Source: Spizellomyces punctatus DAOM BR117
Taxonomy: Eukaryota
Assembly (NCBI GenBank): GCA_000182565.2
Contig: KQ257450.1
Strand: one strand, 5' to 3'
DNA length: 64,000 nucleotides
Below, one piece after another: positions 1-21,617 of this stretch. Both the position numbers and the translations under genes were made by a program. The notes beneath the pieces are model-generated. The model made no database searches. It was given only the letters and a program-made list of their open reading frames with translations, and was not told the DNA's origin. How positions within the stretch are numbered: the first letter of the stretch is position 1; every line of letters starts with the position of its first letter.

Positions 1-372
1 ACTCAACGCTCATGAAACCTGAATGGAAAGACTATTAGTGTGGGTCGTCGCGCTTGTTTTGTCCGTGTGCACACTTGATTGGGAACACCGATACATGGCA
101 AGAGTGTTTGCTTGTTGCTGGTATCTCACTTGGTTTTTTGTGTGCACGGACAAAATGAATTGCAGGCACTGCTGATCAATTCGAGAGCTTGACTGGTAAT
201 TTGGCTGCTGAATAGCACGTGTTGCTGTTTTTTGGGTTCATCCAAAAAGTATGGCAAGTTTCCCAAATAGCCGCCAGGTGTTAAGTAAGTAGTGCGGGGT
301 ATTAGTATTGCTTCTTCTTACACACATACACAGACATCTAGTAAAACACACGGCCCTCGTAAGTGAGCCCTA

Positions 373-6220: not shown

Positions 6221-9037
6221 ATGCCCAACTCGCTCTATGTGGGCGGCCACCGTCCAAGGAAGCATATTCATGTTTCCATAACATACAAGACGCAAAAGAT
6301 TGACACATTTGCGATTGACCCCTCTGCGTCCCTCACGAGCATTATAAAGGAATTATGCATCTCCCACTTCGCCTGTGGGAACCCTGCAAACTATTGTCTA
6401 CGACTGGTAGAAACAGAAGAGCTGGTTACTCAAGAGGTAACAACGCCCAGTATATGTCCTGCTTGTATTGTTAAGCTGAATTGAACATCTTGGGAGTGTA
6501 GAGACTAAGGAGGAAGCTTCGGGATGCCTCGAACCTCAAACTCGTTTCCTCTCCAGCCATCATGGCTGCCGATATGGTCAAAGACTTGACTCCAGAAGAT
6601 CAAACCCTCCTCAAGCGAACCATATTTATGCTACAAAAATACCTCAAGGTATAACCCAATGGTCGTTTGGAACTTTTCGGGCACCTGCTTATCGTGACGT
6701 GCGTAGGAGGATGAATTTGTGGACGAGTTCATTGCCAGATCCGGACTGGAAAAGCTACAGGACGTGATAATAACGGCGCAAGGGAATACTTTAGCATATG
6801 CATTGACCTCACTGCAGACTCTAATGGAGCATGATCGTGGTTGGGACACCTTCAGTCCATCCTTTATCAGCACAGTAAGTTTATCTTCCCTAATGAGCGG
6901 GATTCCATGTCACATGTTAAAGTCTTTCTTTCGCAGCTCGTCTCTATCATCGTAAAACAGAATCTCGTCAACATCTGCCGACCAGCTACAGCGATTATCA
7001 TCAAACTCGTCGTGGCCGACCCGAGTAATCCATCATCTGCCATCCAGTGCTACGGTTTTGATGTTGTTAATCGAGCAATATCAGCCCAGTCGTCCTTTTT
7101 ACCAACCCTTGTGCATCGCCTTTCTGCCACCGACTATCTTCTTCAACTCAACTCGATGCATCTGATAAATTCTCTATTTCGACATGTGACCGAACGAGCA
7201 CGGATTGGCTTCATCGAAATGCTGGACGCGCTAGATATTCGCACAGTAGTCTTGAAACTGATGCAAAGTAGTCCGGCGGACGAACTCAAAGCGCAAGTAG
7301 TCGAGTTTCAGCGACTACTGATCTTGGAAGGGCATAGGAGAAAGAGGACGCCAGTGAGAGTGCATAAACATGAACATGCAAAATCTTTAAAGGAGCTATG
7401 GGAGTGGTCGGAGATTGACCCTGAGGAAGTACCTGATTGGCAGCGATTGGGGTTTACGGTATGTCAATCGTGGCAACCCCGATGCTGTGCGCTATATGTG
7501 CGGTCTTGCTAAATTTCAGATTTCTGCAGAGTACCTTTCCTCATCGTGACCTGAGTCGCGTGGGTGTTCTTGGGCTGGGGGCATTACACAGCTATGCCCA
7601 ACAAAATCGCGAAGCCTATCAAAAGGTATGCAGTCAATCGCATTTCGTATGGTTTTCCACATATCTTAGAGATCATATGTTCTTCCAAGTTTTTCAAAAA
7701 GCAGCAGGAACAGGTACCAGAAAGGCGATGTCCGTTTGCCCGCGCAGGCATCGAAGTTTGCGAAATACTCGCCGATTTTTGGGAAGTCAGCACAGGGTGT
7801 ACGTACCAGGGAGGTTAGAATTTGGAGACATCCAGGATGCTAATATGCCATCTTAGATTCCACAACGACATCGTATCAGCCTCTTTTACTTACTTTCCAT
7901 GAAGTGTTCGCTATAACTCTTCAGACGTTCTTTCGATTGTGGGACGAAATGGAAGCTGACGCCACAGGGGATGACATAAATCGTGTTTCCGCTCTTGTTC
8001 GATCTCAGTTCAAACACTCTGCATCAGCTGGCAAGCCGCTTGATCCAAATCTACTCTCATCCTTCAGGACTGAGATGCTAGAAACACCTTACAGCATTGT
8101 CAGAGAACGGCAGTTGAAGAATTTAGAGGTTGAAGATGATCTGATGACTAAACTTCCCGTCAGGTGTGCAAGTCTGAAGTTGTGTTGGAGAAAACTCACC
8201 TAACCTGTTGTGTTTGAAGAAATCTCCGCGAACGCTTTTACAAAGACAGCTATGAAACAGTAAAGCGGCAAAGAATATCGTGTTTGACGAAGGGCGCGTG
8301 GTTCCCAGTGATACGTGAGAAGGGAAGAGTGAAGGGGTTGTATCGATTTTATCGGCTTGGAGCAAATCATAAATTCCTGCATTACGGGGAATTCTCTGAA
8401 GTGCTAAATAGACGGCCTTTGCCAGATGAGCTCAGCGAGCGCAGTGAGTAATGGTCTATCCAGTCTGCTTCAACCATCTGCTAAACTGTTTATCTTGTCA
8501 TCAGTCGACATGTCTCTTGCGACGGACCTCCTTACGGGCCAATCTTCCCCAATATTCCGATCCAGGAAGAACGCAGGAGAAAACCCGTCCCTATCCTTCT
8601 CCCTTGTGTCTTCATCATCGTCCGATCAAGCAAATCCTTCCATGGCAGATTTCGTGTGTTCTTCAGCCGTGCAATATTCCGAGTGGACCGACGGGTTCAA
8701 CATGCTTTTAGATAAAAACATTGCCAACCGCGATACTGCCGAGTATATTCAGCAACTCACAGATGTAGCCGTCAAGCTCGCGTTGCTTGACTTGACGGGA
8801 GATGGAATCGACGTTGCTGCGGTGTCCACTGTTGATGTACCTGATTTGCCGACTTCTAGTACTTTCTGGTATGATGATGGTGCCGGAGTGGCCGGTGGTG
8901 CGCTCTTAGCGGCACTAGGCGATGGACGGTCAGCTACGCCTGTTCCCAATGGAGAGGAAGATGAAGCGTTTTCAGAGGCGGGAGGGTCGGTGTACGAGGT
9001 TGCCTCTACGGATTCCTTTTTGGATTGCTATACATGA
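6221..9037 (+). CDS. ELMO/CED-12 family protein (ubiquitin-like N-terminus, ARM repeats, ELMO domain, PH domain)
   Basis: GNTLAYALTSLQTLMEH, WQRLGF, CPFARAGIEVCEIL, RQRISCLTKGAWF, RLGANHKFLHYGEF, SEWTDGFNMLL, C-terminal VPDLPTSSTFWYD. Confidence 0.9.
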
Positions 9038-9244
9038 TAGACGTTTTTTATTTAGATTGTAATTTTACAGTGAATTTGTATGTATTTTTTTTTGTAATGT
9101 ATATTCTTTGCTGCCGAGAGCGTTGCATCTGAACGAAGGAATAAAAACAAATGCTCTCATCGGCCACGTGAAAGGCAGGCCGAGTCATTTTGCTACCGAC
9201 CAAATCCATCGCCCGACCAATTTACTTTTCACCACGCTAACAAC

Positions 9245-10780
9245 ATGTACCGAGGCTCGATAGAAGAAGAGTTTGATCGCCTCCCACTGCTCAGCCGACA
9301 AAGTGATGGTAGCAACATGGACGCATTGAGGTATAGTAGAGGGACCGAACTACTCACAACCTTACGTCACAAACTTACCTGTCCTTTCGATCAGTATGAG
9401 AGCCAAGGATATTCAACGGCGATTCTACGACCATATTCTCGAGCAAGTAGGTACGGTCTCCACCAGTTAAACTGTTCATCCCGGAATTTCTTCTAACGCC
9501 GCTCTCTCAAAATGCCCAGTTTGAGAGATTGCAAAAAGTTGACCCAACAGAACGAACCGACTACCACTTTGACCCGGTGTTAGCCAAGCTGCGTATGTAT
9601 GCGTATACTGGATTTTTGGTTCGTCCAATGGATGGGCTCTCAACTTTCTTTGGTTTTACCAGGTAAGCTGCGCGAGGGCATAACTTCGACCGGCGTGTAT
9701 GATGAGTTCGCCGCAAATGGTAAGACCCAATAGCGTACTTTTTGGCGTATTCAACGTATGGATAATTCATAGTCTAAACTACAAGTGTACGAAACATCCG
9801 TGGACGTCTGTCTGCTTGCGAAGAATTTTGCAGAACTGCTCAAGTCGTTGGTTCAAATCTTGGGAACAGTCTATCCAAGGATCATTGGGGATAAACAGGT
9901 ATGGGAAGATCATGCAATTTTACCATATAACAGAGTTTACAGGTAACTGATACTTTGGTTCTTTCGATTGGAAGCGGGTTCCGGACCTGATCTGGTGCAC
10001 CAAATGTCAGCGGGACCGGCCAATATCTTCTTTCGCAGGTTCAGAGCAAGAAAGAGCTTCTGCTGCGATGGAATACGGGCGACAGCGGAGGGTAAGGGGA
10101 CCGACAAGCGATTCAGAACCAGAGGCTGTGACAATAAGCCGGTTCCAGACGTTTTGCAGTGACTGTTCTTCCGGGGAGCGAAAGGTACCGACTTGTTCTA
10201 CATTGCGGGCAGTTATGAAGGGTTAAAACTTTCAGCAGGAAGACCTCCTCTCCCGCAGAGCGGAACTGACTGGTTACATGCTTCTCTATCTGATATGCTA
10301 TACGGCAAGGGGACCAAAATGCTACGGGGACGCAAACAAAGTGATGGAGTATTACCGGGAACTGCCGACCGACCTTCAACGGGACCAAAATGTTACTTTT
10401 GCTCTCAGCGTATTCAAAGCCCTGCATGCTGACATTGATTACGTATCACTGGCACATCTGTGGCATGAGGCATCAACAAATCAGCAAACCCTTCTTCAGG
10501 TGCGTCTCTAGCGAGAATTTGTTCTGACATTTCCCATTCTCTAAAGCGGGAAATCCAACTATAGACTGTTTGGCCTTTGGCGCGACAACGAATATATGAC
10601 GTTTTAAGTAGAGCCTATTATACATATCCCGAGAAACAACTTCGCTTGTCGTTAAGGTTGGAAGTACAGGACCAATTTACAGACTTTATGCGTAAGCAGA
10701 TAGGGTCAGACTCGGTTGCGTCGAGAATAAACAATGGAACTGTTCAACTTCGTGTACCAAAGAGAGTAAAACAGAGATAG
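9245..10780 (+). CDS. SAC3/GANP-PCI-like helical protein, multi-exon
   Basis: Spliced segments VLAKL/RKLREGI, VYETSVDVCLLAKNFAELLKSL, GYMLLYLICY, ARQRIYDVLSRAYYT resemble SAC3/GANP/PCI-family helices. Confidence 0.5.
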
Positions 10781-10832
10781 CAGGTGGACACAGCGAAAGA
10801 GAGCAATGAAAAGTGGGTGTGCACACGGGTTC

Positions 10833-11825
10833 CTATTGAATCATTTGGCCGGCGAATTGGTCGGCCTTCGCCTTATGGTCGGCAGGATTTGCTGCGAGCT
10901 AGTATAATAGCATCTCAGTCGTCCAATATGATTGCTTAACGGTATGTCTTGATTGCACACGCCAAGACCTACCTCGTATATGGTTATGATTGGGTCCTTG
11001 TTTATCTCCATCCACTCCCCTTTCAGTCCAATGTAGTAGATCCTCGATGTATCGTCACCAAAATTCTCGGGAAAGTACAAAGTAAGGTTGCGGACATTGG
11101 AGAACTTGGCAATACGTGTGGGATATTCCGCCAATTGCCCTTTTGGGACATCTCGTACAAGCTCCCATTCCTGAGTCGGCTCCGTGGTGTCCGCTGTGTC
11201 AAAATCCACATCGTCGCGGTTGATGTAGCTAGAAAAATATGTACAATAAGAGAGATGCGATAAATTGGGGAAGAGGCAAGTAGGACTTACGCTTTCATGC
11301 GTGAAGGAGCTTTTTCTCCAGGGCCCCCAAAGATTGCTATTGACTTTAGTTTGATGCTTGCTGTAAATCTAGGTATTCAAAGAACAAGCGCCATAGAAAG
11401 CGCTGTTAGGAACAACAGCCCTTCTTACCAAAAGACGGACGCAACAACAGTACAGGAAGCTTACGGTATATTGATAATTAACTGTTCGTCTGCATCGCTT
11501 TCCACATACTGGAGCATATCCACCAGTAAAATAGCTTGTAAGTACAGGAAAGTATTACGAAAAAAAACACACCACAATCATAGTACTCGCGCAAAAAACG
11601 TATCCCTACCTTTGTCAAATCTCCTCTCTGTTCCCACGTCTTGAAAACCGTCTTAGCAGCTCCTTCCACGCTTTCATTTAGGCATCGGACGTTGTCTATA
11701 TCTATCTGCTTGTAGAGGGTATATTCTGCTCCGCGATCTGGTCCATCGTGGTCGTGATCGTGGCCGTGATGGTGACTGTGATCGTCGTGGTCGTGGTCGT
11801 GGTGTTCGTCGCGGCAGTGAGACAT
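10833..11825 (-). CDS. PITH domain-containing protein (PITHD1-like) with His/Asp-rich N-terminus
   Basis: LYKQIDIDNVRCLNES, VESDADEQLIINIPF, INRDDVDFD, KFSNVRNLTLYFPENFG, IYYIGLKGE, ANPADHK. Confidence 0.92.
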
Positions 11826-12188
11826 TCCAGGTGGTCGTTGACCATTGGAGGCAGAGGTGACGGCCAACTCGGCGCGATCACCTCATAGCAACGCGGTTGC
11901 CAAGTGCCCGGGCATCAACCGCCAGGATATCTTCATCAGAAAGAAACAGAAATATCGAGGAATGCAGACGAGGTTTTTTTATTAAAGATATTGCTCTCTA
12001 TACTATTATTTTTTATCTAGCTTAATTTATCAATAGGTTCAGATTGTTATTTTTAAATATTGATAATGGGTGCGAGCATAATAGGGTTTTTTTGCATTAG
12101 GCGACGAAGCTCATTTTAAATCTTACGGTTTTGTATTTTTCGCCTTTAGAGAGTTATTAGTTACTTCCTTTTTATTTCTTGCTTATAA

Positions 12189-13739
12189 TTAGCCCTTGAG
12201 GACGGGGTTGGGGTTCTGCACGAAGCGATATTTGAGATAGTCCCGGTAGGAAGTCGAGTTCTTCGCCCAGTCTTGAAGCACGAGCGTCCAGCTGAGAGGC
12301 GAAAGGTTCCAGAGACCGTACGCTTGCTGAGTTGTATATTCCAACTCATACGTAACCTTGTCTTCGGTGTTATCTCTCACTAGGTCAGACCAGTATTGGG
12401 TCCATTTAACAAGGCCTCCAAAAGCGAAACGACTCGTGTCGTAGGAGTAAACACGGATAGCAGGGTTGTTTTCACCAATGATACTAGGGCCTTGCGAGCT
12501 CACGTGCAGAATGCAAGTGTTGTCAAAGTCGATGCTGGGGACAGTGTCGGTAACTGTCGAAATGAAGAAGGGGCCGTCTTGAGGCGAGCTAGTATTGTTT
12601 GTGTACACATACGAAATGTAATCCTTGTTTGTGTGTCCGTAGAACGATCCAAGTATAACGTCCGAGAATGATCCGAGGATGTTGGTATAGTCGGTGTGGC
12701 AAGTTGGGTAGTAGAGTTTTTTACCAGAGTGGTCCAATGGGGGGATGTGCTGCATGACATATGCTTTTTTACCGGCACTGCGAAGCTGAGAAAGCTGGTT
12801 GCGCAACCATGTGAGCATGCCAGCACCCGCGCTGCCGTCGACTACACAGTCCTTGGTCAGGACATTGGAGGCGAACAAAAGCATACTGTTCAAGTTCAAA
12901 ACCACGAGACCGGGTTTGACTTCGTAGGCAAAGTAGCCGCCGTTGAGCCAGTCCTGATTTTCGTCCAAGCCAAGTTTGTAGGGTGCCCAGATCTGGGTAA
13001 GGTTGGCGATAATCGGGTCGGTAACAGGAGCCATTTTGTTGTAATCAAGTTCGTCGTTATTACCAAAAGTAGGAATAAACTTGGTTTTGGAGGTATCAAA
13101 AGCACTGCAATTCAATCATCAGGACCAACGTATTGCATGTTGACGGATGCTGCATCCCATACCTTATAACTTTATCAACAACAATCTTGTGCTCATTCAA
13201 CACCTCAGAGTGTTGACGAGGGACTGTTTTGTCACGGTCATGACGGGCAGAATCACCAGTATACAGAATAAAGTCAACATCGGCGGTATTTTGTTTGATC
13301 CAGTCGAAAGTGGCATCTAACATCACTTGAGGGGTATCGCAGATACTGGATAAAGTACCGTATTTTCCAGCAACGTTCAATGCAGCGTTGGTAGCACTTG
13401 GGCGGTGACACATGGTACCAGCGGGGTCGGTACCTTCCTTGTAGAGTTCATCAATGTGGATATCCTAAGTTTCCTAAAGAGTAAGTAAAAGTTTGCAAAC
13501 CAAATCTTTGATGAGTTAAAGCATACCGAGATGTGCATAAATTTGCCATTCAAGCCAGTTGTCCATTTGGGCCATTGAATGGGCGCAAGGTAAGGCCCAT
13601 TATATGCGCTGGCACCGAGACACTTGATGGTCTTTTGCAGCGAGCCGAAATCCGCAGCTGGCAAGGCAGCAGTCGGTCCAGCAAGCGCAAGTGCTGCGAC
13701 CATGCAGGCAATCTTTGAATGGCTTTTTTTGTTGGGCAT
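12189..13739 (-). CDS. Calcineurin-like metallophosphoesterase, Ppn1 endopolyphosphatase / acid sphingomyelinase-like
   Basis: FMHISDIHID, AGKYG..CDTP, DFILYTGDSARHD, PTFGNND, HIPP, GHTN, NPAIRVYSY; hydrophobic N-terminus; 2 introns. Confidence 0.85.
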
Positions 13740-14782
13740 TTGTTGATGATCAAGAAGAGAAAAGACACAGAATTGGGTATTGAATGATGAGAAGGGGAAA
13801 GGAGGCAGTGTGGTCCCTCTTATAGCCCGTAGGATATCTGGGGACTTCTTTTAATTTCATGCATCTGGAAATGCGGCTCAACTCCGATCGTCCAGATCTT
13901 TACCTCAACGATGGAGTTCTTTTTTTCTTTTTGGTTGCTTTGGACAACAAGGCGGCGCTCTGTCAAAGAGCGGAAGTCTCTAGGTGAATCAACATTGACC
14001 AAATGTGAGTTCTGGAATAGCAGTTGGACGATGCGAGACGTTAAACCGTCTGTGGTAATGACATCTAAGTTTCTCCGGAGGCTTGCCAAACACATTAACC
14101 TTACCGTGAACCTTTTGATTCCAGAAATGCAGACAAAGGGTGACCCCCAAATATTCTTCATTGTGCGATTCCCAACTATCGGCCTTTGTCATTGAGCCAC
14201 AGTCCAGGTACATTGAAGACGAGATCCATGTCTTCAAAAGTTTACAAGAGAAACAATGATAACGTTACGTTCCTGTAAACGAAAACATTCGGGCGTTTTC
14301 GATACGTTCCTGCAATAATGGACACCGGCTTTATTGGAAACAAACCGGTGCTAATTATAATTCCGGGCTTCAGCGGAAAATAGATCGTGAGGCAGCGCCT
14401 CGTACTGGACATCAACAGGGAGACGGCTGTGTCTATTTGGGAGCATTGGGTCGATTCGGGCAGTAACAGTCTCGGGGTGATGTATGAAGATCGATCGCCA
14501 ATGGAGTTCTGGAATCCTGTGCTTGGGTACTCCTTAACCCACACTGACTGAAAGAACGATGGTGAAATTCAAGATGTCGTGCCTTCTGGAATGTTTTGAC
14601 CACGGGAGATGATGCGGAGAACCATCCCCAAACGCTGTCTCTCTAACTTGGAAATGTGTCCTTCGGCCATCCTGTCTCCATCTCAAAATAACTCTTGGTG
14701 GCGGGTCTATTTCTTTTCAATAAATGTCCTGCCCCAGTGACAAATTCCTCCCTTCCGCTCTCCTAAGGATCTCTACGCAAAG

Positions 14783-17476
14783 ATGCGACTTAATTGTCTA
14801 ATATTAGTTTTGCTGGCAACTGCCAGCCAACTTGTTTCGTCCTGGCCTAATGGAAATTTCACTTATCGAGTACCATTCGCTCCGGGTGGCGGGTCTGCGG
14901 GTATCGCAGAAACACAGTCAAGATACATCCCTCAAGCGAAGCTTTTATACAAGTCCATCAACAGTGGAGCTACTGCCTGGGCGGACATGAAAAATGATCC
15001 CAAAGATGGTTCAATCGTAAGTAGATAACACTTACTCTTTTTCCAAAGTTTGTCTGTCCGCTTAATTACCACTCTTTAGATTACTTTAATCAACTTGCCA
15101 CATATTTATATTCAACCCTACGTTCCTGAACTTCGCGCCAATTACACGCCAGATGACATTGCCATTGCCTACATCCACACAGTACGTAGTAGTATCACCG
15201 AGTTGCAACTGGGATGCCGTCGCTGATGACTAGGTACCTTTATTTTGACCAGTATACACCATTGGTGCTTCTCGTACCAAAACACAACAGCACTATTCTC
15301 ACTTGGTCAGACTTTGTCGCCGCATGTAAGACCCGGCATATAACGGTTTCCGGTGCTGGAACCGGAACCGTTTTCGAAACTGGCTCGGGTCGTTTGCGAC
15401 AATTGGCCCGCATCAAGTTCGATTACCTCTCCGCCGGAACAGGTGCAACTACTGCCATCACTGAGATGCTCAAAGGAAAGTATGATGCTGCGTGGACTAC
15501 CACACCTGTCGTGAAAGACCGAACAGATGTGCGTGTACTGGCAATTGCTTCAGGTTGGTGCAATAAATCCTTGCGCAACTTGCCTTGCGCATTAGCTAAC
15601 TTTTATATTCTATCCTCCAGAATACGAATTCCCCACCGTAAGTTGAAGCTGCACGGATGGAGTTTCATTTGCCAACAATTTATTAACAAGCAGTTCGTTG
15701 CAGATTGATGCTCCCACTTTCCGGACTTTGGGCATCAACTACATTGATGGTATCTACCGCGGTGTTGGTCTGCCTGCAGGAACACCAGAAAGCGTCATGA
15801 AGGTAAGCAATGGCTGCATTGAGTATTATGCTGATGGTTGCTCAAAATTATTATGCATTACAGGAAGTTTCCAACTACTTTAATGCATTGAACCGCAACA
15901 AGACCTTCATCGCTGAGGTCCAGGCAGACAACGGCGCCTTAATGTTTATGCCATATGACTCGCCTTCCTTGAACTATTTCACTGCAACGTACCGAAAGTC
16001 TATTTACAATGTGCTATTCCCTACCGACCCGATCTCCCGTGGGTCCATCTACGCCTTCTTTGGTAAATACCATCAAACTCAAGCATAAAGTGATTTGAAG
16101 TTAAAATTAACCTTATGGTATTCTAGCTTTTGGCGGCCTGGGAATTCTGCTATGCCTGGCATCTGCTATTTTCAGCTTCATCTTCCGTAACACTCCCGTC
16201 ATCAAAGGCTCCAGTTACTTTTTCAACAACATTATTATCTTTGGCATTGTTCTGGCGTATGCCTCGGTGATTGTTACGAGTCTTCAAATGCCATTGAAGG
16301 GTGTCACTGAACGTACCCTCAGCGCTGGCTGCAAAGCCCTTCCCTGGTTGCTTGGCTTGGGCTTCGACATAACGTTTTCGGCCATCATTGTCAAATCATA
16401 CCGACTCTACAGGTACGACAGAGATTGCACGCCATGAAGAACAGCAATGATCTTTTGTGCTCATTAACGGTTCTGGATAGATTGTTCTTGTTTACTGCTT
16501 CCAAGATTGTCCAGTTCGACGCAAGCAATCTTGCGATTCTGAAATGGGTGTTTGGAATCTGCGGCATCAACGCCATTGTCTACCTCGTGTGGACGGTGCA
16601 AGACCCACTCTCTGCGGAGCTATTGAGTATGGATGGCGACGACACCTTTTACTACAGCTGCACTTCCGAAAACGCATCCGCGTATTTGGGTGTTGTGCTG
16701 TTATTGAAATACATCATGCTATGCTGCTGCATCTTCTTTAGCGTAAAGCTTAGGGATCTGAACGCCATGTTGAACGAGGTAAGCAGCGGGTTGCCCCCTT
16801 TTGAGAAATATTGGATAATATTCACTCAGTATGGCTATTCCTCTAGACCAAGGCCATTGCCGCCGCAACATTCTCCACCACCTTCGTCTTGACTGTTTGC
16901 TTGGCTGTATATGCCCTCGTGAGCAGCTTCGAGGGACGATACATAATTCTGGTCGGGGGTACGACTGTCGGTGCCACAACCTGCCTAGGAGCTCTCTTCC
17001 TCCCCAAAGTTATGGTAGCCCTCTTTAACCCCGACGCCAACACCTTTGACTACATTCGTCGTGTTGTGAAAGGCTCCGACTTGTCTCGTGGAGCTTCCTC
17101 TGGTGGAGAAGGTGCAGCTCGATCGGGCTCGATTGACGCCAGATCAACGGGACGTGGCTCAATGGACCTTTTCACATCGAATCCTGTTCTCTTACACCCA
17201 CCACAAAGTACAATCAGTAATTCATCAATGACGCCTATTTACGTGCAGGAGGGGCGTGCGTTCAACCGTGAACACCGTGACCGAATCAATGCTCTTGCTC
17301 GTGTTATATGCAACACTGCCTCTGAAGGCCGTGTGAGCGAATTCCAAAACCATGTGGGCAAATTGGCCCAGTTTGCCTCTCGGATCCGCGTCATGGCGAC
17401 TGCTAAGAGCCGTGCTTTCTCTATACCCAGCATCAAGTCGGGGGAGCAAATTGCTGAAGATGTTGATGAGCCTTAG
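14783..17476 (+). CDS. Class C (GABA-B-like) GPCR with an extracellular TctC/Bug-type solute-binding domain; 9 exons
   Basis: Exons 14783-15016, 15080-15181, 15253-15553, 15621-15637, 15704-15802, 15864-16062, 16127-16412, 16481-16778 and 16847-17476 splice in frame. Signal peptide; TctC-type motifs WP..VPFAPGGGS, PKDGSI, GAGTGT, VRVLAIAS, PTFRTLG, RGVGLPAGTP; 7TM motifs FRNTPVIKGSS, C...PWLLGLGF, AIIVKSYRLYRLF, VWTVQDP, NETKAI, LFLPK. Confidence 0.88.
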
Positions 17477-17947
17477 AAGGCTGAATTTGAGGGGTGGTGC
17501 TTCGACTTGTAAAGATACCTTTACCTAGACTACTTGTTTTTTGTTCTCACTTAATAGCATTTCTCAGCGTTTTTTCCAAATGAGCTCTAACTGTCGCTCC
17601 CTTTTTGGCAAGTATTGAATCTGTGAAGAAGCAGTGTGCAGATGACAGTTGAGTCTCGATTGTCAAGTGCCATTCAATACAATACTAAATATAGCAGTCA
17701 AAAGTTGCGAGAAAAGCCTAACCGTAACATTGAAGCATTAGTGACCCTCCAAAGGTAACTGCCGCCCTTAAGAATCTCACACAGAGGCAGCATGTTTGAA
17801 GGGGGTATGCGAGTATCGTGCAGAGGTCTATCATCCCTTTCTTGCAAGGACGGCCAGTGGCACTCTCTCGAATCACTACGTTCATTGGAAGCGTATAGAC
17901 AAAAACTGCCTAGAGGTTTATATACAAGTTGCGACCACACGAGCACA

Positions 17948-20900
17948 TCAATCCATCATGTCAAGCTGCAACAACTAGATTAGTACCTGTGACCGAAAGA
18001 AAAAAGGAAAGGAAATCGCAGCCTCCATACCAAATCCTCTTCCTCCACCTCATCCTCGTCACCTTTCGATATTGCTGCTGGCGGCTCGTCCTCGGCCCGG
18101 AGAAACTGTGAAAGGGGAACGAAAGGTTAAATAAATAATAGGAAATATACTGCCAAAAGATCACCGCATCATACCGCATCCGCTTCTTCTCTTGTAACGT
18201 TACTATCACCTGCTTCATCTTTAGTGATGAGTGAGATCTGCTGGTCAACGACCCGCCGCCAAAATGGTGCGTGACGGACGGACTCCCCAACAGACAGGAG
18301 GTGCTTCAGCCCACGTAGCCAATTGTTGAACTGGTCGGATTCGTCGTTTTCGGCAGAGACCTTACGTAGAACAACGAGGCAATTCGTTGCTTTGTCATAA
18401 AGCTGATCGCCAAAGGACTCTGTAACTAATTTTACGATGACCTCGCACATTTGCTCCACCGCTTCGCAGATGATGGTTTCAGATTTACAAAAGATTGCGA
18501 ATACAGGTAACTCCGCCTACCTTTTGTGACCAGATCAATGTCTCTTCTCCCGACCATGGCATTGAAATCGCTAATGGGATCAACTGTGGACACTTTCTCA
18601 ACATTGCGCGCTGTTAGATCGGTCAAGTTTTCTGGCATTGGTTCCTCGACTTTGATTCGCTTTTCAGCTGGACCATTATCGGGGCGATTAAGCACCTCTT
18701 CTGCATCTATCCTATTGGCAGATCTAGCGGCCCAAGCACGCTTTCCTGAACCTTTCTGCTTTTCAACTGTTCAAAAGATCAGCACAAAGCACAACATGAT
18801 TGACTTGGTCGCGTTCCGGTACCTCGAGTTATCTTGAAAGCATCTTTCAATTTTTCGGCTGCTGATTTTGCTCTTTCAACAACGTCTGGTATTGGTTCAA
18901 TGCACGCCATAATTTGTGGGTTCACAGGTGGCAGTTCCGCTTTGTCAGGATGGATAGCACGATAGGCAATGCACTGGTAGATACGCTGCCAGCCTGGGTT
19001 GAATACGTCCTTTGGTCTAAAGGCTTCCCTCTTGTGGCTGCAAGCTTGGTCAGCATCCAAGGCACCCAAGACTTGCCGCATTCAACATGTTCTCACCCGT
19101 CTTCATCCTCCACAGCGTCCGTCAAATCCATTGCGTCAATAAAGGCGTCCATACGCCTCATTGCCTCGTCAGCGGGGACCTGACGAGCATCGAGCTTATG
19201 TTTCTTCTTGCTTGAACTAGCAGGTGAGTCAGTATGAGATTGGGTATTATTAGAAGGCGATAGTGTCGAAACAGCCAAGGTTGAGTTAGATGCGGATGTG
19301 TCTTCAGCTAGCAGGTGATCCAAAGGTGCAAAGGAATAAGGTCGTAAATCCTCTGCAAAGGGAATCTGTGTCGGCCGTCAGGAATCAAACTGTGATGGAG
19401 GAAACGAACTCTGACACACGCACTTGTGCCCACCATCCCCACCCTTTTCTGGCTGGTACCAGCACACCAAGCTTCGGATTGGCGTCATTAACACGGACAT
19501 AACGGACGAGGGCCGCATTCTGCTTTTCGTCAAGCGCCGCGATTAATGTGTAGAATGTCTGCGCCGCTCGTGAATTGCCTGGTTCGGGAACAACAGCCAA
19601 CACATTTGCCATCAAGTGATGACGGGGTACCTGATACCCTATTTAATACCGGCGATATTCGCAGCATAGCAAACAGTAATACCTCGCTCTGTTTGACGAA
19701 GCCTAATATTGACATCCCTTTGGACGTACGTAGTTTCATTGCTTCTTCGTCTTCCGACGAGAAAGGGACCAGGGTTTTGCCATATCTATAAGCCCTCACA
19801 AGATCATCCTTTGATATACTCTTATCCTGCCCGTTTTGATCCTTCTGCAAGTCAGCATCTCCCAAAGCAGGTTTGTAGCTTCGCTGCATTTCCACTTCGC
19901 CGTACGTTGCCCCATTGCGCTCCCCTTCAGAAATAGCTTCTGCGAGCGCAGACCACTTTTTGGCGGAGGGCAGTTTCATCTCTGCTGTCTTGTTATAGAC
20001 CCACACAGGGATTTCAAGTGATTCCGCGGGATGACTCTCAGGATCACCCAACGTAAGTGGTCCTCGAAATACGGTAACTGGTTTTACTGACTTTGAGCGC
20101 AAGCGCTCTAGCAACTCGGACGCTTCGTCTCCACTGAATAGGTTCCCTTCCGCCCTCTCGGTGAAACCGCGTAGAAACTCTTCATTGATCGCCTGACAGA
20201 ATGTTAGCATAACCAGACTCCTTATGCGGTAGCGATCATCCAAACTGCTTGCCTTCACATCGGACTTATGCTCGTGCTTAATTCCGTGATCTGGATCATC
20301 GAAATCGTACCCGCTGCATATCAAACGAGAAAGCTTGTGAGAAATCTAATAACATTGAGTTCCACAGCAGATGATCCCACTCATACATCAGATTGAATGT
20401 GACTGCCAATTCTTTTACTTTCTCGGCAACAGCATCGCTGCCCTCGGTATCCACGGGATTTTCGGCATCCGTGAACACGTAGATTTTTTTTTCGTACTTT
20501 AACTTCCTGCAATGTTGCTCGAGCATATGTAGACCCAGTATGATGGCATCCATGACTGACGATGCACACATGTTGTTAAATATGGGAGACGCGTGTCATC
20601 CTAGCCGTCGTACCTACCATCACCAATAGCAGTCCCTTCTTCCGTACCCCTCTCCACATATTTCAGAAGCTCCAGATTCGGCTGCTTGAAGAGAGCAGCC
20701 TCGTCCTCTTCAAAGCAATACGCCTTGATATGCTGATACTGCTCACCCTCCGCCAAGATGTTATCCGACTCTGAAGCGGGCAAGACGGTTATCTGACTGT
20801 CGCGTGAGAGAAATCCACGGATCTCGTACCTTCTGTTCCAACCAACAATAATGCAACCTGGTCCGTCTTTCGCCCTGGTATTATCTAAATTGACTGAAAT

Positions 20901-21069
20901 AGTCAGAATAGGTTGCATTGTTGCTTCAAGTGTTCGAGACCTTTGAGTGAAGAATTTGGAATAAGGCTTCGTGCGCTCTTTGATGATTTGTTTTGCCCCC
21001 TTCCTCCTTCTTCCTTCGCATAGAAGGATTGACGTCCACAATGAGGACCGTTGCCTCCTTGCTCGCCAT
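17948..21069 (-). CDS. KU80: Ku80 (XRCC5) NHEJ DNA end-binding protein, multi-exon
   Basis: MASKEATVLIVDVNPSM vWA start, YRYGKTLVPFS, LVRYV..NPKLGVLVP, FNPGWQRIYQC, C-terminal VSTVDPISDF..SFGDQLYDKA, ending EEEDL/LDMMD*. Confidence 0.95.
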
Positions 21070-21617
21070 CTTTTCGTCAAATTGTGGGTGGAAGATACCA
21101 CGGCAGGCCCCAACCCACATTTAGAGTTTGCCATGGCAACAGTGTAATGGATTGCACGGCCACCGGTCGGAGTTTAGCTCCGTGGCTCTTGAGGATCAAT
21201 AGGATCAACACGAAGAACCTTCGTGAAGGTCACTGAAAAACCCTTTGTTTACCTACCCGAATCTTCAATAGGATTAAGAAATGACATCAATCACTGATAA
21301 CACTCTGTGTGTCCATGCCCCGAAATCTCGAATAGCATAACCGAAATGAAAGGAACATTGGGTTCCGCCGTAGCGCCCCCAGAGGTCCGGACATTACTAT
21401 TGTTTTGCAGAATGACAACAAACAACTGGATACGACCCATTCAGTTCCGGCAGAATGATATCAACCACGGGTACTATTCTTAGTAAATTTGGGAATCCGC
21501 AACAAATCATGCGGTTGCCTATAAGAGCGAAGGGTTCTGTGCCCTCCCTTGTAAGTTACCATAGGTAGCCTAACATCGACTGCTGCGCCCCTATATCCCC
21601 CTGAACCCTCGTGCGCC

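What the first reader, a model, noticed from the sequence alone, without database searches (positions are those of the whole stretch)
14783..17476. Chimeric receptor: bacterial-type TctC/Bug solute-binding domain fused to a class C GPCR
Seen: nine exons splice into signal peptide + about 290-aa domain with TctC/Bug hallmarks (WP..VPFAPGGGS, PKDG.I, LLVPK, GAGTG, VRVLAIAS, APTF..LG, RG..LPAGTP) + GABA-B-like 7TM + Ser-rich tail. There is no Cys-rich linker. Five spliceosomal introns, flanking a 17-nt micro-exon among others, interrupt the TctC part, so it is integrated eukaryotic DNA rather than contamination. Known: TctC/Bug proteins are type II periplasmic binding proteins of prokaryotic tripartite tricarboxylate transporters and often bind carboxylates, whereas canonical class C GPCRs use a type I Venus-flytrap domain. 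Inference: a bacterial nutrient-binding module was acquired and wired to G-protein signalling, possibly a zoospore chemoreceptor for organic or amino acids. I do not know of a described receptor with this architecture.
Basis: partly seen in the sequence, partly recalled or inferred. Interest (0 to 1): 0.9.

Follow-up and report, generated by a model that had tools for sequence, protein, structure and literature searches.

The report
Chytrid GPCR with bacterial-type TctC ectodomain
A soil chytrid fungus carries a real, expressed receptor gene that joins a bacterial-style carboxylate-binding domain to a GABA-B-like G-protein-coupled receptor body; this type of fusion, and this very gene, were already catalogued in 2012, so it is a refinement, not a discovery.

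Summary
Window 14783-17476 (+) is gene SPPG_00031 of Spizellomyces punctatus. My nine-exon model has eight GT..AG introns of 61-71 nt and equals the 721-aa database protein exactly. Metatranscriptome contigs from a near-identical relative confirm the 17-nt micro-exon and intron 7. S. punctatus RNA reads cover the 3' end up to a poly(A) site.

Residues 20-312 are a TctC/Bug (TTT-family, type II) solute-binding domain:
- the ortholog profile hits 11 solved TTT binding proteins;
- the AlphaFold model has pLDDT 93.7, and its first 14 Foldseek ranks are all TTT proteins.

The window's own protein misses Pfam TctC, and the family's conserved Asp is Ala. Residues 313-585 are a class C 7TM (Pfam 7tm_3, 138.7 bits) closest to GABA-B2. 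There is no Cys-rich domain.

The novelty claim fails. Krishnan et al. 2012 list SPPG_00031 as a Glutamate-family GPCR with a type II binding-protein domain, labelled LysR_substrate. Seppälä et al. 2016 describe type II SBP-class C fusions in gut fungi. New here are the TctC assignment, the single origin of 11 chytrid sequences, and the altered motif. Ligand and signalling are untested.

The parts
14783..17476 (+). Whole CDS of SPPG_00031 (9 exons, 721 aa), ATG to TAG
   Evidence: Spliced model is in frame and identical to database protein P0001
14783..14839 (+). Hydrophobic N-terminus (aa 1-19), probable signal peptide
   Evidence: Kyte-Doolittle window 1-22 is hydrophobic. The profile match to mature TTT binding proteins starts at W21-P22. 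Cleavage is inferred, not tested.
14840..16046 (+). TctC/Bug-type (TTT family, type II) solute-binding ectodomain, aa 20-312, interrupted by introns 1-5
   Evidence: Profile against PDB: 11 TTT binding proteins, best 2.3e-16. phmmer of P0001 alone: 4x9t 7e-12 and 25hk 1.2e-11. AlphaFold pLDDT 93.7, and Foldseek ranks 1-14 are all TTT proteins with TM 0.70-0.84.
14873..14899 (+). Beta1-alpha1 'pincer' loop P-F-A-P-G-G-G-S-A (aa 31-39), the family signature with the final Asp replaced by Ala
   Evidence: In this column 94% of 83 bacterial-type sequences have D and 3 of 3 chytrid rows have A. All 9 A1 sequences that cover this position also have A (P0002 starts downstream of it). The motif definition comes from PMC5812351.
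15621..15637 (+). 17-nt micro-exon (completes codons for EYEFPT, aa 213-218)
   Evidence: GT..AG on both flanking introns. An RNA contig in run X1 joins 15553 to 15704 with these 17 letters (1 difference) between.
16047..17065 (+). Class C (7tm_3) seven-helix domain, aa 313-585, GABA-B-like, with introns 6-8
   Evidence: Pfam 7tm_3 138.7 bits, aa 314-566. Best solved relative is GABA-B2 at 6.4e-19. The AlphaFold model has seven helices plus an ECL2 hairpin. Foldseek gives GABA-B, GPR156, mGlu and CaSR.
17066..17224 (+). Ser/Gly-rich, poorly conserved, predicted disordered cytoplasmic linker (aa 586-638)
   Evidence: pLDDT below 50 over 588-638. 16-46% identity in orthologs other than the sister species, against 60-73% in the domains.
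17225..17410 (+). Conserved C-terminal module (aa 639-700), strand-helix-helix-strand, no known family
   Evidence: pLDDT about 90. 47-87% identity across 7 orthologs. No Pfam hit. Only generic helical-hairpin look-alikes in the ESM Atlas.
17477..17580 (+). 3' UTR up to a poly(A) addition site near 17580
   Evidence: Run X9 depth of 197-400 over 17408-17615, and 25 reads with an A-run loose end behind 17580

Best explanation
SPPG_00031 is one gene for a single-pass-free, seven-helix receptor. Its extracellular ligand sensor is a TctC/Bug-type (tripartite tricarboxylate transporter family, type II) solute-binding domain. That domain is joined, with only about 10 residues and no Cys-rich spacer, to a GABA-B-like class C GPCR body.

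Shown:
- the gene structure and its expression;
- the two domain identities;
- equal conservation of both halves across 11 chytrid sequences that form one clade.

Inferred mechanism:
- A small, probably carboxylate-bearing ligand (organic acid, amino acid or similar) binds in the cleft between the two lobes.
- The lobes close, as they do in bacterial TTT binding proteins.
- The movement passes through the last ectodomain helix (aa 285-302), the short linker and the ECL2 hairpin to the 7TM bundle.
- The bundle, probably as a dimer as in other class C receptors, activates a heterotrimeric G protein.
- The Ser-rich tail and the conserved C-terminal module would serve regulation or scaffolding.

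Inferred origin: the module most likely came from a prokaryotic TctC gene and was fused to a pre-existing class C 7TM in an ancestor of the Spizellomycetales/Rhizophlyctidales. This receptor is one more case of the type II SBP-class C fusions already described in zoosporic fungi.
For: Gene and transcript:
- The model equals P0001.
- Spliced RNA contigs confirm the micro-exon and intron 7, and there are poly(A)-ended reads.
- No Met lies between M280 and M372, so TM1 has no start codon of its own.

Ectodomain:
- Pfam TctC passes in 5 of 7 family members scanned (35-56 bits, cut-off 27) and in P0011 (36.1 bits).
- P0008, P0009 and P0010 carry a precomputed PF03401 annotation.
- The profile hits 11 solved TTT binding proteins over nearly their full length.
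- In the fold search, ranks 1-14 are all TTT proteins (E 9.6e-21 to 4.5e-16); the next class follows at 1.5e-8.
- 20 conserved bacterial columns are kept.

7TM:
- 7tm_3 scores 138.7 bits.
- GABA-B2 is the best solved match. C386 and C473 align with GABA-B2 cysteines, and LPKV aligns with its VPKL.
- The model shows seven helices and an ECL2 hairpin.

Selection: ectodomain identity is 60-94% and 7TM identity 62-95% in the same 7 orthologs.

Origin:
- Of 150 listed hits from 1.84 billion representatives, 3 are chytrid. Scores then drop from 404 to 170 bits, to bacterial-type proteins mostly of about 300-350 aa.
- The 3 non-chytrid hits above 400 aa have no 7tm_3.
- The 11 chytrid rows form one clade with SH-aLRT 100.
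- The review PMC5812351 states that these transporters are absent from eukaryotic cells, and that TTT proteins bind carboxylates through the pincer loops.
Against: - The window's own protein, and that of its sister species, give no Pfam TctC hit even at E<=10. NCBIfam gives no hit either.
- The 'very conserved' Asp of the signature motif is Ala in every chytrid sequence that covers it. Six further columns conserved in bacteria are also changed: R43E, G59I, Y77S, T78I, R215E and E226T. The ligand therefore may not be a carboxylate, or binding may be lost.
- No RNA read or contig crosses the exon 6/7 junction that links the halves. One X1 contig is unspliced.
- The 7TM part of the full-length model has low confidence (pLDDT mostly 50-80, pTM 0.57).
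- No ligand, G-protein coupling, dimer or zoospore expression was tested.
- The tree is unrooted, and the sister group of the chytrid clade has only 86% SH-aLRT support on a stem of 1.05 changes per site. Transfer direction and donor are therefore not shown.
- Few relatives carry organism names: a Hyphomicrobiales MAG and Streptomonospora.
Confidence: 0.6

Rival explanations
1. The fused gene is real, but the TctC-like domain no longer senses carboxylates. It may bind another class of ligand, or act only as a structural or dimerisation cap on a constitutively active or otherwise regulated 7TM. GPR156, a GABA-B relative, signals without any ectodomain.
For: The signature Asp is Ala in every chytrid sequence that covers the position, and six other bacterially conserved columns are changed. 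The two Spizellomyces proteins fall below Pfam TctC. GPR156 is among the structural matches of the 7TM. The review notes that some TTT proteins bind non-carboxylates such as nicotinamide or sulfolactate.
Against: The ectodomain is as conserved as the 7TM across the family. The glycine-rich pincer loop, F32 and the second loop glycines are kept. The model is a well-formed two-lobe fold closest to ligand-bound TTT structures, with TM 0.84 to AdpC with oxoadipate and to Bug27.
Confidence: 0.25
2. The TctC-7TM fusion is ancient and vertically inherited in eukaryotes, a relic of early SBP-7TM fusions, and was lost in most lineages. It is not a lineage-specific acquisition from bacteria.
For: Class C receptors with varied SBP ectodomains occur in distant eukaryotes (PMC3251606; PMC3971589). 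The chytrid clade sits on a long stem without a well-supported bacterial sister.
Against: In the 150 best hits of a scan of 1.84 billion representatives, the only eukaryote-named or fused members are chytrids. The named fused members found come from three orders by NCBI label: Spizellomycetales, Rhizophlyctidales and one Chytridiales.
Confidence: 0.1
3. Gene-model artefact: two adjacent genes, a secreted TctC-like protein and a separate 7TM protein, were merged by annotation.
For: No RNA evidence across the exon 6/7 junction, and one unspliced contig there. Three database models stop early: P0006 at 360 aa, P0011 at 276 aa and P0008 at 518 aa.
Against: - Eight independent models from seven named species plus one unnamed source are fused at 678-751 aa.
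- Reading through intron 6 meets a stop 8 codons after the exon end (ORF 15807-16088).
- No Met is available before TM1-TM2.
- P0006 runs from the ectodomain into TM1 in one frame.
- The only strong poly(A) signal is at 17580.
Confidence: 0.03
4. The ectodomain is a LysR_substrate-type domain, as labelled in 2012, and not TctC.
For: Krishnan et al. 2012 assigned LysR_substrate (PF03466) to SPPG_00031 using Pfam/RPS-BLAST with a permissive cut-off. Both families belong to the same type II clan.
Against: No LysR_substrate hit for any of 7 family members at E<=0.1, or for P0001 and P0002 at E<=10. All top sequence and fold matches are TTT binding proteins.
Confidence: 0.02

Closest known systems
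Fungal Glutamate-family (class C) GPCRs with type II periplasmic-binding-protein ectodomains (Krishnan et al. 2012, PMC3251606; Seppälä et al. 2016, PMC5168858)
   Same: Same kind of chimera: a prokaryote-type type II SBP domain in place of the ANF/Venus-flytrap domain, no NCD3G domain, a 7tm_3 body, and a zoosporic fungal host. SPPG_00031 itself is on the 2012 list.
   Different: The published labels are LysR_substrate, PBP_like_2, OpuAC, SBP_bac_1 and sugar-type SBPs. TctC is not named in the passages I read or in any paper found by my searches. None of these receptors has a known ligand.
Bacterial TctC/Bug solute-binding proteins of tripartite tricarboxylate transporters (BugD, BugE, Bug27, AdpC, MatC, TphC, Polaromonas TctC)
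   Same: Same fold and family by profile and structure. The glycine-rich beta1-alpha1 loop, F32 and about 20 conserved columns are kept.
   Different: 20-31% identity. The domain is tethered to a 7TM instead of being free in a periplasm, with no TctA/TctB partner implied. The signature Asp is replaced by Ala, among other changes. The gene is eukaryotic, with five introns.
Metazoan GABA-B receptors and GPR156
   Same: Closest solved 7TM by sequence (6.4e-19) and among the closest by fold. No Cys-rich domain between ectodomain and TM1. The ECL2-TM3 cysteines and the TM7 PK motif align.
   Different: GABA-B uses a type I Venus-flytrap domain and a heterodimer with a C-terminal coiled coil. Here the ectodomain is type II, the C-terminal module is a short strand-helix-helix-strand unit, and dimerisation is unknown.
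BctC-BctE of Bordetella pertussis (a TctC-family protein that signals through a sensor kinase)
   Same: A TctC-family binding protein used for signal transduction rather than only transport (PMC8050422 table; cited in PMC5812351).
   Different: The bacterial partnership is non-covalent, with a histidine kinase. Here the domain is covalently fused to a eukaryotic GPCR.
Dictyostelium Grl and Allomyces class C receptors with Bmp or OpuAC ectodomains
   Same: Non-ANF bacterial-type binding domains on 7tm_3 bodies in unicellular eukaryotes.
   Different: Different binding-protein families. Bmp belongs to the type I clan.

Membership tests
TctC/Bug (Pfam PF03401; TTT-family solute-binding proteins) | Score above the Pfam gathering threshold (27 bits) | tested here: not met
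   P0001 (the window's protein) and P0002 give no TctC hit, even at E<=10. Orthologs do pass: 5 of 7 scanned at 35-56 bits, P0011 at 36.1 bits, and P0008-P0010 by precomputed annotation.
TctC/Bug (Pfam PF03401; TTT-family solute-binding proteins) | Significant full-length sequence similarity to experimentally solved TTT binding proteins | tested here: met
   The profile of 10 ectodomains hits 11 TTT structures, E 2.3e-16 to 5.5e-4, aligned over positions 2-278 of 292. P0001 alone hits 4x9t at 7e-12 and 25hk at 1.2e-11. The reverse view gives 5277 hits at E<=1e-3 in 1.84 billion representatives, and all 10 scanned are TctC.
TctC/Bug (Pfam PF03401; TTT-family solute-binding proteins) | Two-lobe type II (cluster E-II) fold closest to TTT structures | tested here: met
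   Model pLDDT 93.7, pTM 0.91. Foldseek ranks 1-14 are all TTT proteins with TM 0.70-0.84; other type II proteins start at E 1.5e-8 with TM about 0.5.
TctC/Bug (Pfam PF03401; TTT-family solute-binding proteins) | Signature motif P-F-X-A-G-G-X-X-D in the beta1-alpha1 pincer loop (PMC5812351) | tested here: not met
   The window has P-F-A-P-G-G-G-S-A. P, F and G-G are kept, but the fourth position is P (K/Q in the other nine chytrid sequences that cover it) and the conserved D is A in every chytrid sequence that covers it. 94% of 83 bacterial-type rows have D.
TctC/Bug (Pfam PF03401; TTT-family solute-binding proteins) | Works with TctA/TctB membrane subunits to import a carboxylate | not testable with these tools
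   No whole genome is held for this window. The covalent fusion to a 7TM argues for a different role. Ligand binding needs experiment.
Class C GPCR (Pfam 7tm_3, PF00003) | 7tm_3 score above the gathering threshold (33.5 bits) over the full model | tested here: met
   138.7 bits, aa 314-566, model positions 9-251 of 251. 6 of 7 family members scanned pass; the seventh ends in TM1.
Class C GPCR (Pfam 7tm_3, PF00003) | Seven membrane helices, ECL2 hairpin, TM3-ECL2 cysteine pair, TM7 PK motif | tested here: met
   Helices at 310-339, 346-369, 379-419, 429-453, 478-510, 513-537 and 543-572, with strands at 457-462 and 469-474 (low to moderate pLDDT). C386 and C473 align with Cys of GABA-B2, and LPKV aligns with VPKL.
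Class C GPCR (Pfam 7tm_3, PF00003) | Type I Venus-flytrap (ANF_receptor) ectodomain | tested here: not met
   No ANF_receptor, Peripla_BP_6 or Bmp hit in any of 7 members. The ectodomain is type II.
Class C GPCR (Pfam 7tm_3, PF00003) | Nine-cysteine domain (NCD3G) between ectodomain and TM1 | tested here: not met
   No NCD3G hit, and only one Cys (C137) between the signal peptide and TM1. GABA-B receptors also lack it (PMC5168858).
Class C GPCR (Pfam 7tm_3, PF00003) | Obligate dimer and coupling to heterotrimeric G proteins | not testable with these tools
   This needs biochemical and cell assays; no computation here bears on it.
LysR_substrate (PF03466), the 2012 published label | Pfam hit to PF03466 | tested here: not met
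   No hit in 7 members at E<=0.1, or in P0001 and P0002 at E<=10.

The most novel reading that the evidence does not exclude
A TTT-family (TctC/Bug) binding domain, a family regarded as prokaryote-only, was captured once by an ancestor of spizellomycete and rhizophlyctid chytrids. It was rewired, with a remodelled pincer loop (Asp to Ala), into a GABA-B-like GPCR. The receptor lets zoospores or germlings sense a specific soil or root-derived organic acid or amino acid. It would activate the 7TM by a type II clamshell acting directly on the helix bundle, without a Cys-rich relay. That would be a natural, portable 'bacterial sensor on a eukaryotic GPCR' design.
Probability: 0.3. Interest if true: 0.65.

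Novelty: new member of a known kind. Interest (0 to 1): 0.4.

Why it matters
The finding adds one correctly named family (TctC/Bug) to the list of bacterial-type type II binding domains that early-diverging fungi have placed on class C GPCR bodies. It also corrects the 2012 label for this gene.

TTT binding proteins have a growing set of solved ligand complexes: aspartate, glutamate, quinolinate, adipate, malate and terephthalate. That makes this orphan receptor unusually approachable. The ectodomain is small, has a single Cys and is predicted with high confidence. The host species has been reported as genetically tractable (recalled, not checked here).

Deorphanising it would show how a type II clamshell can drive a class C 7TM without a Cys-rich spacer. 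It could also inform chytrid chemosensing and receptor or biosensor engineering. As it stands, it is a catalogue refinement, not a new kind of system.

Tried and rejected
- Exon-by-exon Pfam scan of the window. It gave only 7tm_3 on exons 7 and 8 and a weak SBP_bac_11 hit (E 0.13) on exon 3. It was too fragmentary, so I replaced it with the database protein.
- NCBIfam scan of P0001, P0003 and P0004: 0 families.
- Homodimer prediction of two ectodomain copies: score 0.01, verdict 'no answer', and the tool did not use my alignment. This is no evidence either way.
- The genome search on the window's own genome: none is held. Paralogs, Gα genes and TctA/TctB could not be counted.
- ESM Atlas feature search of the whole protein and of aa 636-702: no usable hit. 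The structure rows for the tail are generic helical hairpins.
- Earlier scan notes by words, sequence and place: nothing.
- The word-index search with the 7TM region, run at my strict cut-off of 1e-10, returned only the same 9 orthologs. It therefore says nothing about which other chytrid class C receptors are the nearest 7TM relatives.
- Donor identification: cluster look-ups of 20 relatives gave organism names for only two clusters, a Hyphomicrobiales MAG and Streptomonospora. The sister group in the tree has weak support. I name no donor.
- Runs X3 and X4 are unspliced, genome-like contigs and say nothing about transcription.
- Literature searches on 'TctC' at word start mostly matched primer sequences.
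- Supplements were not available. These include Krishnan 2012 Dataset S1 and figures, de Mendoza 2014 supplementary fig. S3, and Seppälä 2016 Additional file 2. They could already show a TctC label.
Full report
**What is there**

The region 14783-17476 on the + strand reads as nine exons joined by eight GT..AG introns of 61-71 nt. These include a 17-nt micro-exon at 15621-15637. The 2166-nt CDS is in frame and ends at TAG 17474-17476. A database search with exon 3 returned a 721-aa protein at 100% identity, named by its sources as SPPG_00031 of Spizellomyces punctatus DAOM BR117. My spliced translation equals that protein letter for letter.

The flanking ORFs carry PH, PITH, acid-sphingomyelinase C-terminal and Ku domains. 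This is an ordinary chytrid chromosomal neighbourhood, not bacterial contamination. A tblastn of the protein against the window finds only this gene.

**Transcription**

I laid four runs.

- Run X9 (RNA raw reads, same species label; about 6% of the run was read) gave 2168 reads. They are almost all on the + strand and strongly 3'-biased, with depth of 97-400 over 17200-17615. 25 reads end in an A-run behind 17580, which indicates a poly(A) site about 104 nt after the stop.
- Run X1 (an RNA library of a metagenome) holds contigs of a near-identical relative.
  - One contig joins 15553 to 15704 with 17 intervening letters that match the micro-exon except at one position. This confirms introns 3 and 4 and the micro-exon.
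  - Another contig splices 16412/16481 (intron 7).
- Against a clean picture: a third X1 contig (16115-16421) is unspliced at both ends, and nothing crosses the exon 6/7 junction that links the two halves.
- Runs X3 and X4 are unspliced, genome-like contigs.

Indirect evidence for one gene:
- Eight independently predicted orthologs are fused at 678-751 aa.
- Reading through intron 6 meets a stop after 8 codons.
- There is no Met between M280 and M372, so TM1-TM2 have no start of their own.

**The ectodomain (aa 20-312)**

Pfam does not call TctC on the window's own protein or on that of its sister species, even at E<=10. NCBIfam is also silent.

All other evidence places the domain in the TctC/Bug family.

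- Pfam on relatives: TctC passes in 5 of 7 family members scanned (35-56 bits, cut-off 27) and in the Fimicolochytrium fragment (36.1 bits). Three more members carry a precomputed annotation.
- Profile against solved structures: a profile of ten chytrid ectodomains (alignment A1) hits 13 distinct PDB sequences at E<=1.
  - 11 of them are TTT binding proteins (25hk 2.3e-16, 4x9t 5.6e-15, AdpC, BugE, MatC, Bug27, three TBP entries, TphC, BugD), aligned over nearly the whole length.
  - The other two are weak and unrelated, at E 0.048 and 0.71.
- Single sequence: P0001 alone reaches 7e-12 and 1.2e-11 against two of these structures.
- Structure: an AlphaFold model built on 86 sequences has pLDDT 93.7 and pTM 0.91. 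Foldseek ranks 1-14 in the PDB are all TTT proteins (E 9.6e-21 to 4.5e-16, TM 0.70-0.84). The best TM scores include ligand-bound forms (AdpC with oxoadipate, closed TphC). Other type II binding proteins follow only from E 1.5e-8.
- The 2012 label LysR_substrate is not reproduced.

**How typical a TctC it is**

Against 83 bacterial-type relatives, 20 strongly conserved columns are kept.

Seven conserved columns are changed: D39A, R43E, G59I, Y77S, T78I, R215E and E226T (P0001 numbering).

The review by Rosa et al. 2018 (PMC5812351, passages read) gives P-F-X-A-G-G-X-X-D as the family signature. This is the loop whose backbone, with two waters, clamps the ligand's proximal carboxylate. The chytrid version is P-F-A-P/K/Q-G-G-G-S-A, and the Asp is Ala in every one of the chytrid sequences that cover the position.

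The clamp architecture is therefore retained but remodelled. A carboxylate ligand is the best guess, but it is only a guess.

**The membrane part and tail**

- Pfam 7tm_3 scores 138.7 bits over aa 314-566.
- The best solved relatives are GABA-B2 (6.4e-19), then mGlu4, GABA-B1, mGlu and CaSR.
- In the GABA-B2 alignment, C386 (top of TM3) and C473 (ECL2) align with cysteines, and LPKV aligns with the TM7 VPKL.
- The full-length model (40-row alignment; pLDDT 75, pTM 0.57) has a confident ectodomain and seven helices with an ECL2 hairpin at only moderate confidence.
- It also has a disordered Ser/Gly-rich stretch at 588-638 and a confidently predicted strand-helix-helix-strand module at 640-698.
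- Its fold matches are TTT proteins for the ectodomain, and GABA-B, GPR156, mGlu and CaSR for the 7TM.
- Between the signal peptide and TM1 there is a single Cys, and there is no NCD3G hit. The last ectodomain helix (285-302) is followed by about 10 residues before TM1.

**Distribution and origin**

Word-index searches with exon 3, the ectodomain and the 7TM region each returned only the same small family (the last at a cut-off of 1e-10).

Its members are Spizellomyces (2), Powellomyces, Geranomyces (2), Gaertneriomyces, Phlyctochytrium arcticum, Borealophlyctis (2 paralogs) and one unnamed metagenomic protein. Fimicolochytrium was added from the exhaustive scan. By NCBI labels these fall in Spizellomycetales, Rhizophlyctidales and Chytridiales.

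The exhaustive profile scan of 1.84 billion representatives gave 5277 hits at E<=1e-3.
- Of the 150 listed, 3 are chytrid. Scores then fall from 404 to 170 bits, to typical TctC proteins mostly of about 300-350 aa.
- The only three non-chytrid hits longer than 400 aa are a tandem TctC, a C-terminal TctC and a TctC-TctB fusion. None has 7tm_3.
- Hits beyond the 150 listed could not be inspected.

A maximum-likelihood tree was built from 11 chytrid and 105 other rows; 42 of the 147 non-chytrid hits were left out because their length fell outside 295-350 aa. It puts the chytrid sequences in one clade (SH-aLRT 100) on a stem of 1.05 changes per site. The neighbouring group has only 86% support, and the tree is unrooted.

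Few relatives are named: a Hyphomicrobiales MAG and Streptomonospora. A single fusion event in an ancestor of these chytrids, from a prokaryotic TctC, is the most economical reading. The review's statement that TTT systems are absent from eukaryotic cells is consistent with it. Donor and direction are not demonstrated.

Ectodomain and 7TM are equally conserved across 7 orthologs (60-94% against 62-95%). The linker is not (16-46% outside the sister species). This argues that both domains are under selection.

**What is already known**

Krishnan et al. 2012 (PMC3251606; passages read) list SPPG_00031 by name among fungal Glutamate-family GPCRs. They note that it carries a domain of the type II clan (CL0177), called LysR_substrate. 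They list PBP_like_2, OpuAC and SBP_bac_1 fusions beside it, and they note that NCD3G is absent outside Metazoa.

Seppälä et al. [quoted passage not shown] They discuss repeated SBP-7TM fusions.

de Mendoza et al. 2014 (PMC3971589; one passage read) mention ANF, OpuAC and Bmp configurations, and species-specific ones in a supplement I could not see.

Databases already tag orthologs with PF03401 plus PF00003, and one source name reads 'TctC'.

I found no paper that names a TctC-GPCR fusion. The searches were:
- TctC + GPCR;
- tripartite tricarboxylate + G protein-coupled receptor + fungi (0 papers);
- TctC + 7tm_3 (0 papers);
- a four-term search;
- PF03401 (9 papers, none on eukaryotes by title or abstract).

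SPPG_00031 occurs only in the 2012 paper.

A bacterial analogy exists for TctC-family proteins in signalling: BctC acts through the sensor kinase BctE (PMC8050422 table).

**Verdict**

The assignment rests on profile and fold evidence, not on a Pfam hit for this protein.

The interpretation as a chimeric receptor is sound. It is, however, a member of an already described kind, and the gene itself is in print under a different domain label.

The likely mechanism is ligand-induced closure of a type II clamshell transmitted directly to a GABA-B-like 7TM. This is inferred, not shown.

Ligand, dimerisation, G-protein coupling and zoospore expression remain open. Interest is moderate.

Noticed in passing
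window 17225-17410 (aa 639-700): A conserved C-terminal module follows the disordered Ser/Gly-rich linker. It is predicted with pLDDT about 90 as strand-helix-helix-strand, is 47-87% identical in 7 orthologs, and has no Pfam family. It may be a docking or dimerisation element.
   Followed up: partly
window 17416: In RNA run X9, 30 of 180 + strand reads show G instead of T, starting at 17 different places. This could be an allele, a strain difference or a library artefact; no DNA run of the same culture was compared.
   Followed up: no
window 15445-17398, run X1 contigs: An RNA library of a metagenome holds spliced and unspliced contigs of a near-identical relative of this gene, with 0-5 differences per contig. 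A close relative of S. punctatus was therefore transcribing the receptor in that environmental sample.
   Followed up: no
P0002, P0006, P0008, P0011 (database orthologs): Four of the 11 family members look like truncated gene models. P0002 starts at an internal Met and lacks the signal peptide and pincer loop. P0006 stops in TM1, P0011 inside the ectodomain, and P0008 after TM5. These are probably annotation errors around short introns and micro-exons.
   Followed up: no
P0008 (Phlyctochytrium arcticum) in the tree: NCBI taxonomy labels this species Chytridiales. Its receptor is nevertheless the nearest relative of the two Spizellomyces sequences (3-row clade, SH-aLRT 97). That suggests a taxonomic label that no longer fits, not a wide distribution.
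   Followed up: no
P0009 and P0010 (Borealophlyctis nickersoniae): This species has two paralogs of the receptor (66% and 63% identical to the window's ectodomain), whereas every other genome sampled shows one.
   Followed up: no
window 8408-13850 and 19530-21173: Neighbouring ORFs carry PH_12, PITH (two exons, - strand), acid-sphingomyelinase C-terminal (- strand) and Ku70/80 beta-barrel (- strand) domains. These are ordinary eukaryotic genes with no functional link to the receptor.
   Followed up: partly
P0062, P0127, P0139 (non-chytrid hits): Three unusual bacterial-type architectures turned up: a tandem double TctC (622 aa, a cluster of 10 members), a 651-aa protein with TctC only at its C-terminus, and a TctC-TctB fusion of 482 aa.
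   Followed up: no
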